DNA of 38,887 nucleotides from Gonapodya sp. JEL0774 (lineage: Eukaryota): contig JADIIX010000174.1 in assembly GCA_027604505.1 (NCBI GenBank), forward strand, positions 1 through 38,887. Reading direction: 5' to 3'. The notes under the pieces are model-generated. The model was not told the origin of the DNA. It did no database searches and saw nothing but the letters and a program-made list of their open reading frames with translations. This document shows positions 7,651 through 14,494 of this stretch, piece after piece (the stretch's first letter is position 1; the number at the start of each line of letters is the position of its first letter). The position numbers and the translations under genes are program-made.

Positions 7651-8218
7651 TCATGGATGATGTGCGCTTTCGTCCAGCAAACTGCGAAGGTACTGGACGC
7701 GCGACTCCAAATCTGCTTTCTGTTGCACAAGATCATCTACGTGCTGAATCGCCATATTCAGCAAGTCACTTTCGGAGCGTCGCGATTCGGCAGCCCCCGG
7801 GATTAGTTCTGAGTGAACAAACGAAAGGACAAATACCCCAGCAAGACGGTCACCCGGATCATCACCAACGAACAGAAGTGAGAGCATTGTAAATATCATG
7901 CATCAGCTGTGCCTGGTGCAAGTAACTGTTCGGAGCCTGCTGGGACTCACGAATGAGCTCTGAGAATCCTTTGCGGATCTGATTCCTCCGCTTCTTCTCA
8001 CTGTTCAGATGATTCCTCTTCTTCTCAATCTCCGTAAGAAATCGTCCGTTTCCATTTTGCCGCTGGCTCCCCTCGTCGTCGTCGATGGAGGTCTCGTCGT
8101 CAGAGCTCCCCTCATGGTCAGATTTTGGCTGCCGTGATAGTGCTGATCGTTTCTTCTTCGAGTCATTTTCGTAGTTAGCATGAGCTTCGCCTTGCTTTGG
8201 TGATTCGTCTGCAGCCAT
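7651..8218 (-). CDS. bHLH transcription factor (Ino4/Mlx-like), two exons
   Basis: LTEIEKKRNHLNSEKKRRNQIRKGFSELI spliced to LIPGAAESRRSESDLLNMAIQHVDDLVQQKADLE: basic region, helix-loop-helix and short zipper. ATG at 8218. Confidence 0.85.
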
Positions 8219-8312
8219 GTGAAACTTTGCCCGTGCCTTGTTTTGGCTTCGCTTTGGTTCCGCCGTGCCCCATGGCCCATCATTACATCTTTTCCACCCT
8301 CTCACACAAACC
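8219..8312. promoter_or_regulatory. Very short divergent (bidirectional) promoter between the bHLH gene and ValRS
   Basis: The bHLH ATG (8218, minus strand) is 94 bp from the candidate ValRS CUG (8313) and 259 bp from its ATG (8478). Confidence 0.5.
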
Positions 8313-8477
8313 CTGGCCTTCCATCAACGCATTATTGCGCGCCAACTGTTCACTGCTGTGTGCATTCCATCGCAGACTCATCTCACTCTCGGTGCAGCCC
8401 AATTTCGCGCGTCATCGATCTCCCGACCAATAGCTTCACCTTCGGCTCCATTCTCAGTTCAACGAAAGTTACTGTCG

Positions 8478-11400
8478 ATGAACGGAGGCACGGTAAACGG
8501 AACTAAGGACTCAGAGAATCCGGATGGGGCAACTAAATCAAAGAATGCATTGAAAAACGAGGAGAAAAAGAAGGCAAAGCAGGAAAAAGCTGCGATGAAA
8601 CAGCAGAAGGGAGAGGAGAAGAAGCAGCAACCGGCGGTAAGGTAGCTCGTCCTATATCGATTCTTTGAAGTGAATTTATTGAGCTCTTTACTGTCACAAA
8701 CCCCAGTCGTCTGCCGAGCCCAAAGCCAAACCGAAGAAAGATGGTGTTTCAGCTGCTGTGGAGGAATTTGTGAATACCACCCCTCGCGGTGCCAAGAAAG
8801 GTATTTTTCACTTTGAGTGATTCCAAGGCGTTTCTGATCCCCATTCTTTGCACATATCGCCTCCGGTACCTTTGGTGCAAAGATCTCTCTGCCCCCATGG
8901 CATCCTCTTACAACCCCAAAGCTGTCGAAGCGGCCTGGTACTCGTGGTGGGAGGAATCTGGGTACTTCAAGCCGCAGCTGACTCCCGAGGGAGACTCTCG
9001 GAATGAGGGCACGTGAGACCCATCCCCTGTTAAAGCGACGAGTGTATTCCGCTGATTGAAATCGCTCTACGGATTCACGCAGTTTCGTCATCGCTATTCC
9101 TCCGCCAAATGTCACGGGCTCCCTTCACTTGGGACACGCTCTCACCAACTCTATTCAGGACACCATGACGCGATGGTTCGTTCCCTTTTTAGGGTTCTTT
9201 CAGTTTGGAGTTCCTTCCAAAGATTTGGAATGTCTTTTAGGAACCGTATGAAGGGGAAAACCGTGCTTTGGAACCCCGGTTGCGACCATGCTGGTATCGC
9301 CACTCAGGTTGTTGTGGAAAAGAAACTATGGAAGGAGCAGAAAAAGACCCGTCACGATTTGGGGAGAGAAGAGTTCTTGAAGGAAGTGTGGAGGTGGAAG
9401 GATGAGTAGGTTTTGAAACGAGCGAGTGGAATGGTTTGGTGGAGTTTCACTTATTTGACATTGGCTCGTGTCTCACAGGTCTGGTGGTCGAATTTACGAG
9501 CAGTTGCGACGTCTTGGTGGATCTTTTGACTGGGATCGTGCTAGATTCACAATGGACCCAGTGAGTAGTTGTTTTCGGCATTCGCCGTTCTGTTTCTGAG
9601 TTTTTTTTTTTTTTTGGCTCCAGATGCTTGTGAAAGCGGTCAATGAAGCATTCATTCGATTACACGAAGAAGGCATTATATACCGTGAGAACAAACTGGT
9701 GAACTGGTGCACGTCACTCAAGACGGCGTTGTCTAACCTGGAGGTGGAGAATGAGGAGATTGACAAAAGAACCATGAAGAGTGTGCCAGACCATGACCCT
9801 AACCGCAAGTACGAGTTTGGCGTGATCGCAAAGTTCGCGTACCCTCTTGAAAGCGGTGATGGGGAGATTGTGGTTGCAACAACCCGTTTGGAGACTATGC
9901 TGGGAGACACAGCAGTAGCTGTTCACCCCACAGATGAACGCTACAAGCATTTGCACGGAAGTTTTGTTGTTCACCCACTCAATGGACGTAAGATACCCAT
10001 AATTGCGGACGAGATGGTCGACCCGGCATTTGGAACTGGGGCGGTGAAGATTACACCTGCACACGACTACGCAGACTACGAAACAGGAAAGCGACACAAC
10101 CTTCCATTTATCAACATTTTGAATGAAGACGGATCTTTGAATGAGAATGGAGCACCTTACACTGTGAGGCGCGTTCCAGTTTCAGTATCTTAACATAAGT
10201 AAACGTTCCTTGTTTGATTCGAACAGGGTCAGAAGCGATTTGACGTGAGAGTAGCAATTGAGAAGGAATTGACCGCGAGGGGCTTGTTCCGTGGAAAAGA
10301 TCCACATAAAATGATGCTCCCGATCTGCGAGTAAGTGGTTGGCACCCCTTTTGAGCCCAACTCGTCATTTGACGCACAGCGTGTAGTCGCTCTAAGAATA
10401 TTGTGGAGCCCTTGATGAAACCACAGTGGTGGGTGAGGAGCCAGCCCCTTGCTGTCCCAGCGATGGAAGTGAGTGGTCTTGAAACTGATATTTCTGGTGC
10501 ACATAAACGTGAACATGGTGTTGTCAGGCCGTACGAGATGGTTCGTTGAAGATTCAACCTATTTCTTCAGAGAAAGAATGGTTCGCCTGGCTGCAGAACA
10601 TTCAGGACTGGTGGGTGAATCAATTGCCAAACACATGACAGTCCCACACTTCACCATTGTGTCGTGAAAGGTGTATTTCCCGGCAATTATGGTGGGGCCA
10701 CCGTGTACCTGCCTACCTGGTAAAAGTCGACGGTCAAAGTGTGAGTACCATTTGGACGGACCCATGCTGCGCACCAACACCATACTCACTTTATCCTACA
10801 ATCAATCCAGACTGCGGGAGAAACTTGGGTTTCTGCACACTCAAAGGAAGAGGCACTGAAGAAGGCGATGGCGAAGTTTCCCGACATCCTGCCATCCAGA
10901 CTAACACTCGAACAAGATCCGGACGTCCTTGACACTTGGTTCAGCTCTGGCCTGTGGCCATTCTCTATCTTTGGTTGGCCGGACAAGACAGAGGACATGC
11001 GTTTGTTCTACCCGACCAGTCTCTTGGAGACTGGTTGGGACATTCTATTCTTTTGGGTGGCTCGTATGGTTATGATGGGAATTAAACTCACTGGTCAGCT
11101 ACCATTTAACAACGTGTTCTGTCACGCCATGGTGCGGGATCGTGATGGACGCAAAATGAGTAAAAGCTTGGGAAATGTGGTGGATCCGATCTCCGTGATT
11201 GAGGGAATCTCACTCGAAGAACTTCATAGAACCCTTCTGACTGGAAATTTGGACCCAAGGGAAGTTGAAAAAGCGAAAGACAACCAAAAAAAGACCTTTC
11301 CAAAGGGCATTCCGGAGTGTGGAACGGACGCCCTGCGCTTCACCCTATGTGCTTACACTTCGACCGGTGAGCTGACGTCCTAATTCTGTCATTTCATGTA

Positions 11401-13744
11401 TTCTGCTTAAGTCAGATACTCTTCCGTGTTGTGAGCAGGTCGCGACATCAACTTGGACATCATGCGTGTGGAGGGTTACCGCAAATTCTGCAACAAGCTT
11501 TGGAACGCGGTCAAGTTCGCACTCATGAAGCTCGGCGACGATTACACTCCTCCAAAATATCGTGTGATCGCTGGTTCGACTCTTGCAGAGAAATGGATCT
11601 TGTCGAAGCTCAACACTGCGGTTCACAGCGTGAACAACAATCTGGACGCGATGAACTTCATGTCCACTACAGCCGCAATTTACAGTTTCTGGCTCTACGA
11701 GGTTTGTGATGTATACTTGGTGGGTCTCAAATTCGTTTCGGCTTCGGATCCTCTGTATTGCATGAATTTTAAACAACCGACCACGCGTGCAGGAGGTCAT
11801 CAAACCCATTCTTGATGGAAACGACTCCGATGAAACAACAAAGAAGTCTGTCCGAGATACTTTGTACACTGTCACTGAGGAGGGCTTAAAGCTATTGCAC
11901 CCATTCATGCCGTTCATTACTGAGGAGCTCTACCAGAGGCTACCTCGACGACCAGAAGATACCATCCCATCCATCATGTTGACCAAATTCCCTGAGGCGG
12001 TTCCACGATGGAGCAACCCTACTGCGGAAAAGGATTTCGGTGTGGTCAATGATGTTGTCCACGCTGTCCGCTCTTTGATGGCTGACTATCAAGTGAAGAC
12101 AAACGCCAAAAGTATGATTTGCTTACTCTCATCATTGTGCTCACTTGCTGATGTTTTAGAACGATCTCTAGTTTTTATTCTGACGGGCACTCGAGAGGCG
12201 AGGGACCTAATGCTTTCCCAAACGCCGGCCATTCAGACTCTTGCCCGAGGTGTAAGTTTCATTGATGTTCGGGATGATGAAAACCATCCTGTGGGATGCG
12301 CTCTCGTTACAGTTTCGGAGGCCATACATGTCCTTCTTCTGGTGAAGGTTGGTGTCGACTTTGATCGGATCTAACTCAATGAGATTATGATTTCCGGTAT
12401 TTTAAAACAAGGGTGTGGTAAACATCGACCAAGAGCTAAGTAAATTGAGGAAAGAAGCAACCCAAGGTCAGTTAGCGTGTGAATGTTTCACACTGTAATG
12501 TGGGAATGACCCTTCGCACTGTTCTCCTCCGCCACGCAGTGGCTGAATCGAAGGCGAAGTTTGAAAGAGACTTGGCACGTGTGCCCGATTATGAAACGAA
12601 GGTGCCGGCAAATGTTCGGGAGCAGAATGACGCCAAGCTGCGCGAGTTCGACGCGAAACTGAGAGGTATGCTGTGACAATTGATTGAAGTCATCAGTAAC
12701 TGAACACAACTGCAACATCGAGTCAGCTCTTGCCACTGCAGTTGAGACTTTTGAGAGGATTCGCGACGAACCCGAAGCGAACAGCACCCTTAAGACAAGC
12801 GTGACGTCACCAAATGAGTTCCCTGACTTACCTGGTCCAGCGGGATTGAAGGATTTGAACACGTTCCTCGAATCTCGTTCATACATTGAAGGGTGAGTGG
12901 GCTCATTTGATCATCACTCTACGAATTGAGACTACACTTAATTTCTCTTAAATCAAGATGGACACCCTCCCAAGCAGATGCTCGCATCTTTGCCAGGGTA
13001 GGGGAGAGTCCCAGCGAGTCGCACTATCCCCACGTGTGGCGATGGTATCAACACATTGCTTCTTTTGGTGATGCCAAATCACAGTACGTAAAATTGAAAG
13101 GACACACTAATGGATTTAAATGCGCTCACCATCACCCCATTAGGTTTGCCGCTGCAAACGGAAAGACTCTGGTTCCAACTATCGGTTCATCTGCTCCTGT
13201 AGCTCCTCAAGCAGCCCATGAGGACGAAGAGGAGGAGATTGATCTGTTCGGTGACGATGAGGTAGATGAGGAAGCGGAGAGAATCAAGGCGGAGAGGGTT
13301 AAGGAGTACGAGGCAAAGAAAGCCAAGAGTGGGTTGTTGCTTTCGTTTTGTACCAGCTGCGACTTTGCGACTGATTTTATCTCATTAGAAACTGTTGTAA
13401 TCGCAAAATCCTCCATCTTGTTGGATGTGAAACCATGGGATGATGAAACGGACATGACCACCTTAGAAGCAAATGTCCGGTCAATTGAAATTGATGGCCT
13501 TGTTTGGGGACAATCGAAACTCGTCCCGGTAGGGTATGGCATCAAGAAGCTCCAGATCTCATGTGTCGTGGAGGATGACAAGGTTGGCATGGATGATTTA
13601 TCGGATAGAATTCAAGCTGATGAGGACCACGTGCAAAGTGTAGACGTGAGTATTTGATGTTTATCTTGACAGGAGTCAAGGTCTGTGAACTAATACGCAC
13701 CTGTTTGCTTGTGGTGGAAGATTGCCGCGTTCAACAAAATCTAA
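8478..13744 (+). CDS. VAS1: Valyl-tRNA synthetase fused in frame to a C-terminal elongation factor 1-beta (EF1B-alpha); many short introns; possible CUG-initiated N-terminal extension from 8313
   Basis: [19 protein letters not shown] region [26 protein letters not shown]; editing domain [11 protein letters not shown] and [43 protein letters not shown]; anticodon-binding domain; coiled coil ending [24 protein letters not shown]. No stop before the EF1B part. Confidence 0.9.
12819..13744 (+). CDS. EFB1: EF1B-alpha (EF-1-beta) portion of the fusion: GST-C-like N-domain, acidic linker, GEF domain
   Basis: [32 protein letters not shown]...[43 protein letters not shown]...[21 protein letters not shown]...VQSVD|IAAFNKI*. 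Introns 12893-12957, 13084-13143, 13329-13388 and 13646-13720. Confidence 0.93.
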
Positions 13745-13952
13745 ACAACGAATCTTGTTTTGTTGAATGTAAATGAACAGCTACTGTATATTTTGAACCC
13801 AACTCTCATCTGGTGTTGGCCCCATTCATGCATGCCAGTCGTATGTGAAATCCAATTGTAAGATTGAGTGGCTGGTGACTTTTCATCACCTGCAACCAAC
13901 CAGTTATCGAGAACACTTGCTAGAAAAGCCCACTCTCGGCCCACTGTTTTCA

Positions 13953-14494
13953 ATGTCCCAGCCGGCAGACACCCCTCCAGAGTCATATGATTCTGTTGAT
14001 GCAATTGACAGACACGTTCGAGCCTTGCAGCAGGAGCTAGAGGAAAAGCTGGTTCATCTCGAAGTGGATGCCGACGGAGGAATCGACTGGAGTCAGCTCG
14101 GTGAGCACCTGGTTTTCCTGACAATCATAGTTTCATTGTTGACAGTTTTTGGTAACGGGTTTATGACATTGTTGATTCGATCGCGGCGGGGGACCGATTT
14201 TGCGGGATGCAACCTTACAACCGCCATGGGAGGAAAGACTTGAAAACCGATATTGCTTCTCTCTTGCAAGTAATGGATCGTACTAATCGAGCGTTGGATG
14301 CGGTGGAAGCGCGGGCTGATAATTTGAACTCGAAGCTGGACGCAATTCTGCAATCTGCAGAGGCGGAGAAGCAGGTCATGGAACAGAGCAAACGAGAAGA
14401 GGAGGAAAGACGAAAAAGGGAGAGTGGAGCGGCACCTGCAGAGGCGCCACCAGTCACTCCGAGTTCGAAACTTTCGGAACCCCTCTCCCAGTGA
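13953..14494 (+). CDS. Small coiled-coil protein, UPF0184 (C9orf16/bublin)-like; two exons
   Basis: MSQPADTPPESYD...IDWSQL, intron 14101-14237, then DLKTDIASLLQVMDRTNRALDAVEARADNLNSKLDAILQS, which resembles the UPF0184 core by recall. Confidence 0.55.

What the first reader, a model, noticed from the sequence alone, without database searches (positions are those of the whole stretch)
8478..13744. Valyl-tRNA synthetase fused in frame to full-length elongation factor EF1B-alpha
Seen in sequence: after the ValRS C-terminal coiled coil, removing intron 12666-12726 gives [24 protein letters not shown], a normal ValRS ending. The frame then stays open through a linker of about 16 aa ([16 protein letters not shown]) into [25 protein letters not shown], the EF1B-alpha N-terminus. 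There is no stop, no intergenic space and no in-frame AUG until deep in the GEF domain. The alternative acceptor at 12696 is also in frame. Established: vertebrate ValRS binds the EF1B/EF-1H complex through an N-terminal GST-like extension, while yeast VAS1 and EFB1 are separate genes. This ValRS has no N-terminal GST-like domain. Inference: a covalent, independently evolved version of the ValRS-EF1H complex that could channel Val-tRNA to EF1A. I do not know of a description of this fusion.
Basis: partly seen in the sequence, partly recalled or inferred. Interest (0 to 1): 0.92.

Follow-up and report, generated by a model that had tools for sequence, protein, structure and literature searches.

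The report
tRNA synthetase fused to EF1B recharger
In two water-fungus species the gene for the enzyme that loads valine onto tRNA runs without a stop into a complete copy of elongation factor EF1B; similar synthetase-EF1B fusions turn up in about nine separate eukaryote lineages and would likely hand charged tRNA straight to the factor that carries it to the ribosome.

Summary
The gene splices (21 GT-AG introns) to one 1290-residue frame: complete ValRS, 16-residue linker, complete EF1B-alpha without a start Met. ValRS relatives end exactly where the linker begins. An indel or annotation artefact is unlikely: Gonapodya prolifera has a model carrying the same ValRS tail (11/13 identical), a same-length diverged linker (2/16) and Met-less EF1B, besides an ordinary free EF1B gene. 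The fusion is one case of a recurrent pattern: 79 of 119 long EF1B-bearing proteins are synthetase fusions (Phe-beta in teleosts, Ala in annelids, His twice, Thr, Ser, Lys, Val), all with EF1B at the synthetase C-terminus; a second, independent ValRS-GEF fusion was found. A tree needs 8 changes and rejects one origin. Ten literature searches found no description. Likely function: tethered GDP/GTP exchange on EF1A beside the synthetase, a covalent analogue of the vertebrate ValRS-EF1B complex; untested. No RNA or protein evidence exists for this locus, and G. prolifera's annotation splits the gene. Earlier scan notes report only GST-domain (non-GEF) synthetase fusions on other DNA.

The parts
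8478..8800 (+). ValRS exons 1-2: start ATG and lysine-rich N-terminal extension; no GST-like domain
8883..11719 (+). ValRS catalytic and editing region (exons 3-13; HLGH at residue 143, KMSKS at 649) and start of the anticodon domain
   Evidence: Pfam PF00133 E=3e-154; T. thermophilus ValRS 1gax E=2e-169
11793..12665 (+). ValRS anticodon-binding domain and C-terminal coiled-coil arm (exons 14-17)
   Evidence: PF08264; PF10458 below its cut-off; alignment to 1gax
12666..12726 (+). 61-nt intron; retention gives a stop three codons in (1041-residue ValRS lacking its last helix segment); alternative in-frame acceptor at 12696
12727..12770 (+). Last ValRS helix (natural ValRS end), start of the junction exon
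   Evidence: 44 of 50 relatives with the arm end at P0001 positions 1040-1049, median 1046; 11/13 identical in G. prolifera P0221
12771..12818 (+). 16-residue linker, no stop; contains out-of-frame ATG at 12814 and palindrome GTGACGTCAC
   Evidence: same length, 2/16 identical in P0221; low pLDDT in model
12819..13083 (+). EF1B-alpha N-terminal GST-like domain without start Met (intron 12893-12957 inside)
   Evidence: PF21972 weak; profile A1 hits PDB 5dqs_D E=8e-30; three helices in model
13144..13328 (+). EF1B hinge and central acidic region
   Evidence: PF10587
13389..13744 (+). EF1B GEF domain, with the last exon 13721-13744 carrying the C-terminal Lys and the stop
   Evidence: PF00736 E=1e-30; 71/84 identical to P0221, 72/84 to P0222; 1f60_B, 1b64_A

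Best explanation
One gene encodes a complete valyl-tRNA synthetase joined in frame to a complete EF1B-alpha, and the protein likely works as a self-contained loading station that recharges EF1A with GTP beside the enzyme and passes valyl-tRNA to it. Shown: the continuous frame, both sets of domains, loss of the EF1B start Met, the same junction in a second Gonapodya species, a free EF1B paralogue there, and repeated independent synthetase-EF1B fusions elsewhere. Inferred: (1) an EF1B duplicate landed behind the ValRS gene in a Gonapodya ancestor and the ValRS stop was lost; (2) the spliced mRNA is translated mainly as one 1290-residue chain; (3) the GEF, on a flexible tether at the end of the tRNA-binding arm, binds EF1A-GDP, exchanges the nucleotide, and EF1A-GTP takes the newly charged tRNA hand to hand; (4) the GST-like domain may also dock the enzyme on EF1B-gamma; (5) the free paralogue serves bulk EF1A recycling.
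For: Single frame, one stop. ValRS relatives end where the linker starts, so the last ValRS helix and the EF1B start share one exon. P0221 keeps tail 11/13, linker length, GST-like 42/68, acidic 33/36, GEF 71/84. The two fused copies are sisters (99/82) inside a Gonapodya clade (100/99). 79 of 119 long EF1B proteins and 8 of 30 hand-grouped partner lineages are synthetases; binomial p 4e-13 to 8e-5 for a background share of 0.4 to 5%. Seven such fusions are continuous ORFs on contigs only 161-623 nt longer than the ORF, so they need no splice prediction. One origin rejected, p-AU 1e-6. Chytridiales HisRS fusions and the second ValRS fusion P0476 keep only the acidic region and GEF, so the GEF is the shared unit. 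Channelling in the vertebrate complex is described in PMC9458455 (passages).
Against: No transcript, read or peptide for this locus was seen. The G. prolifera annotation presents the tail-linker-EF1B as a separate 267-residue protein with 11 unalignable N-terminal residues, and its DNA and ValRS model could not be fetched. The window's own database model P0001 is over-merged with the downstream gene, and 29 of 119 long EF1B proteins have unrelated partners, so merge artefacts are common. An out-of-frame ATG sits at 12814. The two fused copies are unresolved from the free copy in the GEF-only tree, and pairing the window copy with the free copy is not rejected (p-AU 0.31). Channelling was not tested.
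Confidence: 0.65

Rival explanations
1. The fusion is real but serves as a docking or co-expression device: it ties ValRS to the EF1B complex (through the GST-like domain) or simply fixes stoichiometry and location, with no direct tRNA hand-over.
For: GST-like domains are the usual glue of synthetase complexes (PMC9136112 passages); the domain is intact here; partners span seven amino acids with no evident chemical pattern.
Against: Two independent fusion lineages (Chytridiales HisRS, P0476 ValRS) lack the GST-like domain and keep the GEF; the GEF is the best conserved part, 71/84.
Confidence: 0.15
2. One locus, two main products: intron retention or early polyadenylation gives free ValRS, an internal start or cleavage in the linker gives free EF1B, and the full fusion is a minor form.
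For: Retention of 12666-12726 gives a near-complete 1041-residue ValRS. G. prolifera is annotated split. In the fish Sparus aurata both a 589-residue free and an 849-residue fused PheRS-beta are annotated with an identical 589-residue start. No free EF1B of the window's species appeared among the best 120 hits.
Against: Retention would drop the last 15 residues that relatives keep; no in-frame ATG for a free EF1B; none of the polyadenylation-like hexamers tested lies between 12400 and the stop (weak in fungi); the linker sequence is not conserved as a cleavage site would be (2/16).
Confidence: 0.15
3. Assembly or annotation artefact: a base lost in the TT run at 12819-12820 hides the EF1B start at ATG 12814 and the ValRS stop.
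For: ATG 12814 lies one base from the expected Met position; draft assembly; no reads were available to check.
Against: G. prolifera has a linker of the same length, in frame, with no Met at that position; the other 20 introns and all exons splice cleanly without frameshift; two separate genes would overlap with no room for a promoter.
Confidence: 0.05

Closest known systems
Vertebrate ValRS-EF1B (EF-1H) complex
   Same: ValRS physically joined to the EF1A exchange factor; hand-to-hand transfer of Val-tRNA to EF1A-GTP proposed (PMC9458455 passages; PMC4394549 passages).
   Different: [quoted passage not shown] Here it is covalent, C-terminal, with an EF1B-alpha type chain, in an early-diverging fungus.
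GluProRS (EPRS) and nematode MetRS-p43 gene fusions
   Same: Covalent fusion of translation proteins that elsewhere associate in trans (PMC4394549 passages).
   Different: Partners are a second synthetase or a tRNA-binding cofactor, not a GEF.
Synthetases with appended GST-like domains (ValRS, MetRS, GluRS; Arc1p, AIMP)
   Same: The fused EF1B brings a GST-like docking domain (PMC9136112 passages).
   Different: Those carry only the docking domain; this one carries the acidic region and the catalytic GEF as well.
Archaeal LeuRS-EF1A complex
   Same: Synthetase coupled to the elongation factor for channelling (PMC4394549 passage).
   Different: Non-covalent, and with EF1A itself.
Database-annotated synthetase-EF1B fusions (teleost PheRS-beta, annelid AlaRS, Chytridiales HisRS, brown-algal LysRS, Nowakowskiella ThrRS, unnamed SerRS, HisRS and ValRS P0476)
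   Same: Synthetase first, EF1B GEF at the C-terminus, start Met missing in 78 of 79.
   Different: Different synthetases and independent origins; found only as database records, no paper found.

Membership tests
Eukaryotic cytosolic-type ValRS | HIGH and KMSKS motifs, class I catalytic domain | tested here: met
   HLGH 143, KMSKS 649; PF00133; 1gax best hit
Eukaryotic cytosolic-type ValRS | Anticodon domain and complete C-terminal coiled-coil arm | tested here: met
   PF08264; PF10458 weak; end position matches 50 relatives
Eukaryotic cytosolic-type ValRS | Valylation activity | not testable with these tools
   needs an assay
eEF1B-alpha | N-terminal GST-like domain, central acidic region, GEF domain with C-terminal Lys | tested here: met
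   role of the Lys in exchange is recalled, not tested
eEF1B-alpha | Stand-alone chain with its own start Met | tested here: not met
   no in-frame ATG before 13454; none in P0221 at that position
eEF1B-alpha | GDP/GTP exchange on EF1A and binding to EF1B-gamma | not testable with these tools
   no EF1A or EF1B-gamma of this organism was in hand; no complex prediction was run
Vertebrate ValRS-EF1B complex | N-terminal GST-like domain on ValRS | tested here: not met
   no Pfam hit before residue 103; lysine-rich extension only
Vertebrate ValRS-EF1B complex | Non-covalent binding to the EF1B-beta (delta) subunit | tested here: not met
   partner is covalent and of the alpha type with a GST-like N-terminus
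Vertebrate ValRS-EF1B complex | Channelling of Val-tRNA to EF1A-GTP | not testable with these tools
   inferred by analogy
Neighbour-merge annotation artefact | A predicted intron skips the upstream stop and the downstream gene keeps its own start; not conserved | tested here: not met
   junction lies inside one exon, conserved in G. prolifera; the downstream merge in P0001 does fit this pattern (316-nt intron skipping the true last exon)
Bifunctional synthetase fusion (GluProRS type) | Two synthetase catalytic domains in one chain | tested here: not met
   second module is EF1B

The most novel reading that the evidence does not exclude
Synthetase-EF1B fusions are an undescribed, convergently evolved class of self-loading synthetases: at least nine times in eukaryotes (Val twice, His twice, Phe, Ala, Thr, Ser, Lys) a GEF for EF1A was welded to the C-terminus of a synthetase because direct tRNA hand-over is under selection. 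The Gonapodya protein is the single-chain form of the vertebrate ValRS-EF1B complex.
Probability: 0.55. Interest if true: 0.9.

Novelty: new variant of a known kind. Interest (0 to 1): 0.82.

Why it matters
Whether charged tRNA is channelled from synthetase to EF1A, and why ValRS in particular binds EF1B, are old open questions (PMC9458455 and PMC4394549, passages). A single-chain ValRS-EF1B lets one compare cis with trans directly, with GEF-dead and linker-cut controls, and is a simpler target for a structure with tRNA and EF1A than the multi-subunit vertebrate complex. Repeated independent fusion with seven synthetases is evolutionary evidence that the coupling is general, and valine being picked three times (vertebrates non-covalently, Gonapodya, P0476) bears on the weak-binding hypothesis for Val-tRNA. 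The teleost PheRS-beta case, with fused and free isoforms annotated, offers a genetic model in medaka.

Tried and rejected
No whole genome is held for this window, so the search for a free EF1B in the same genome could not be run. No sequencing run was listed; this is no evidence either way. Two metagenome scans with the junction exon found 595 and 458 pattern matches and no confirmed relative. The ESM Atlas gave no usable hit for the fusion region and only bacterial ValRS C-terminal clusters under 0.9 for P0476. The G. prolifera ValRS model was not recovered by the representative search. The AlphaFold model of tail-linker-EF1B (mean pLDDT 64, pTM 0.32) shows the expected separate domains and nothing on their arrangement; no fold search was run on it. 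Splice-site strength did not single out intron 12666-12726 (10 of 20 pyrimidines, range 9-18). The indel reading was considered and rejected on the second species. The P0001 extension (residues 1278-1397) was rejected as a merge with the next gene. Look-ups of earlier findings by place and by sequence gave nothing. Ten literature searches listed no paper whose title or abstract start describes such a fusion; subscription papers and supplements were not seen.
Full report
Observation. The sequence at 8478-13744 is an intron-rich gene on the + strand. Mapping the database model P0001 on the window and refining it by hand gave 22 exons, 21 introns of 56-82 nt, all GT-AG, and a 1290-residue frame with a single stop at 13742-13744. 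Pfam places the ValRS catalytic and anticodon domains first and the EF1B acidic and GEF domains last, with no GST-like domain at the N-terminus. The junction is inside one exon (12727-12892): last ValRS helix, 16-codon linker, then the EF1B N-terminus beginning at its conserved Phe. Of 150 ValRS relatives from the representative search, 50 had an alignable C-terminal arm; 44 of these end at P0001 positions 1040-1049, median 1046, which is where the linker starts. The helix in the junction exon is therefore the true ValRS end. No in-frame ATG lies between the junction and 13454. The protein search names the window's own model as a Gonapodya sp. protein; that model also swallows the next gene by a 316-nt intron that skips the true last exon, so it is not evidence by itself.

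Artefact check. An open in-frame gap of 16 codons has about a 0.14 chance probability, and an out-of-frame ATG at 12814 would become the EF1B start if one T were missing from the assembly. No reads could be had. The second species decides it: the two best hits among 134-427-residue proteins are both from G. prolifera. P0221 (KXS10905.1) carries the ValRS tail (11/13 identical), a linker of the same 16 residues (2/16 identical) and EF1B with no Met at its start; P0222 (KXS11361.1, another contig) is an ordinary EF1B with its own Met. Against my reading: P0221 is annotated as a separate short protein with 11 N-terminal residues that do not align to ValRS (probably read from the intron; inference), and I could not fetch its DNA or the ValRS model upstream. 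No free EF1B of the window's species appeared in the best 120 rows; the draft may lack it or the fused copy may be the only one.

A recurrent architecture. A search with the EF1B part restricted to chains of 768-2445 residues gave 119 hits among 2406 candidates. 79 are synthetase fusions, 11 long EF1B-delta isoforms, 29 have other partners. The synthetase cases are PheRS-beta in teleosts (65 clusters), AlaRS (5, with Capitella teleta), HisRS in Chytridiales (4, GEF without the GST-like domain), a second HisRS type (1), ThrRS in Nowakowskiella (1), SerRS (1), LysRS in brown algae (1 cluster of 4 members) and this ValRS. EF1B follows the synthetase in all 79, and 78 lack a Met at the EF1B start; 13 of the 29 other partners have EF1B at the N-terminus, as expected of merged neighbours. 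Grouped by hand, 8 of 30 partner lineages are synthetases; for a background share of 0.4, 1, 2 or 5% the binomial p is 4e-13, 5e-10, 1e-7 or 8e-5 (the background shares are my assumptions). Seven records are continuous ORFs on contigs only 161-623 nt longer than the ORF. Sparus aurata has both a 589- and an 849-residue PheRS-beta with the same first 589 residues. Among the 150 representatives, 2 had an EF1B match: P0476, a second ValRS followed directly by the acidic region and GEF, on a 2024-nt contig, and P0509, with only a GST-like domain inside ValRS. Some single records (ThrRS, the second HisRS, P0476) rest on one sequence each, and an oxidase-GEF model in Entophlyctis shows that the Chytridiales GEF-only copy also appears with a non-synthetase partner. 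Chains of 404-767 residues were seen only among the best 120 of 1265 hits.

Origins. In a tree of 50 EF1B rows (21 fused, 29 free or neighbour-merged; most fish rows left out) the fused label needs 8 changes, and holding the fused rows together is rejected (p-AU 1e-6). The two Gonapodya fused copies are sisters (99/82) and join the free G. prolifera copy (100/99); pairing the window copy with the free one is not rejected (p-AU 0.31). In a 30-row tree of the GEF region P0476 groups with the brown-algal copies (100/99) and a clade of the three ValRS-fused GEFs is rejected (p-AU 0.027, long branch). Several fused rows have long branches, so their exact places are unsure.

Mechanism. The profile of the EF1B part matches the solved N-terminal domain (5dqs) and GEF domains (1b64, 1f60); the model shows a helical domain, a disordered hinge, the acidic helix and the GEF, with a disordered linker. 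The GEF is the most conserved part (71/84 to P0221, 72/84 to P0222), and the last exon keeps the C-terminal Lys, recalled as needed for exchange in yeast. In vertebrates ValRS binds the EF1B complex through an N-terminal GST-like domain and passes Val-tRNA to EF1A-GTP; the authors suggest weak Val-tRNA binding to EF1A as the reason (PMC9458455, passages), and a review restricts that domain to Deuterostomia (PMC4394549, passages). I infer that the fusion does the same job covalently: the GEF, tethered to the end of the tRNA-binding arm (arm contact with the tRNA elbow is recalled), reloads EF1A next to the charged tRNA. That the GEF, not the GST-like domain, is common to all nine lineages favours this over mere docking. 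Rivals are docking or co-expression only (0.15), two main products from one locus (0.15; retention of intron 12666-12726 gives a 1041-residue ValRS), and an artefact (0.05).

Novelty. Ten full-text searches listed no paper on a synthetase fused to the EF1B GEF; I read passages of PMC4394549, PMC9458455 and PMC9136112 and saw only listings of the rest; supplements and subscription papers were not seen, and a domain-architecture table there could hold these cases. Earlier notes of this scan report AlaRS and ThrRS with EF1B-type GST domains only, unchecked here. The function has a known analogue, the covalent form and its recurrence seem undescribed: new variant of a known kind, interest 0.82.

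Noticed in passing
window 8223-8477 (+): 85 codons open in frame upstream of the ValRS ATG, with 8 Arg/Lys, no Asp/Glu and several near-cognate codons but no ATG: resembles a mitochondrial leader started at a non-AUG codon. If so, a mitochondrial isoform would carry EF1B unless intron 12666-12726 is retained.
   Followed up: partly
P0126, P0099, P0353/P0359 and 60 more teleost clusters: PheRS-beta fused to a duplicated EF1B across many fish, with free and fused isoforms annotated in Sparus aurata; no paper found.
   Followed up: partly
P0476: Second, independent ValRS fused to the EF1B acidic region and GEF, with a GEF nearest to brown-algal copies.
   Followed up: partly
P0509: ValRS fragment with an EF1B-alpha-like GST domain inserted just before the anticodon-binding domain.
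   Followed up: no
P0180, P0172, P0106, P0177, P0184; P0200, P0206, P0210, P0211; P0175; P0194; P0216; P0004: AlaRS, HisRS (two types), SerRS, LysRS and ThrRS with a C-terminal EF1B.
   Followed up: partly
P0207, P0208: Entophlyctis models join a flavin oxidoreductase to a GEF-only EF1B of the same clade as the HisRS-fused ones; real or merged is open.
   Followed up: no
window 13646-14491: The database model P0001 skips the true last exon (13721-13744) and merges a small downstream coiled-coil gene; it also omits six residues before intron 11720-11792.
   Followed up: yes
window 12800-12809: Perfect palindrome GTGACGTCAC (CRE-like, recalled) inside the linker, with in-frame GTG and ACG codons that could serve as weak starts.
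   Followed up: no
window 7865-8221 (-): A gene starts head to head about 260 nt upstream of ValRS; its frame looks bHLH-like by eye; not tested.
   Followed up: no
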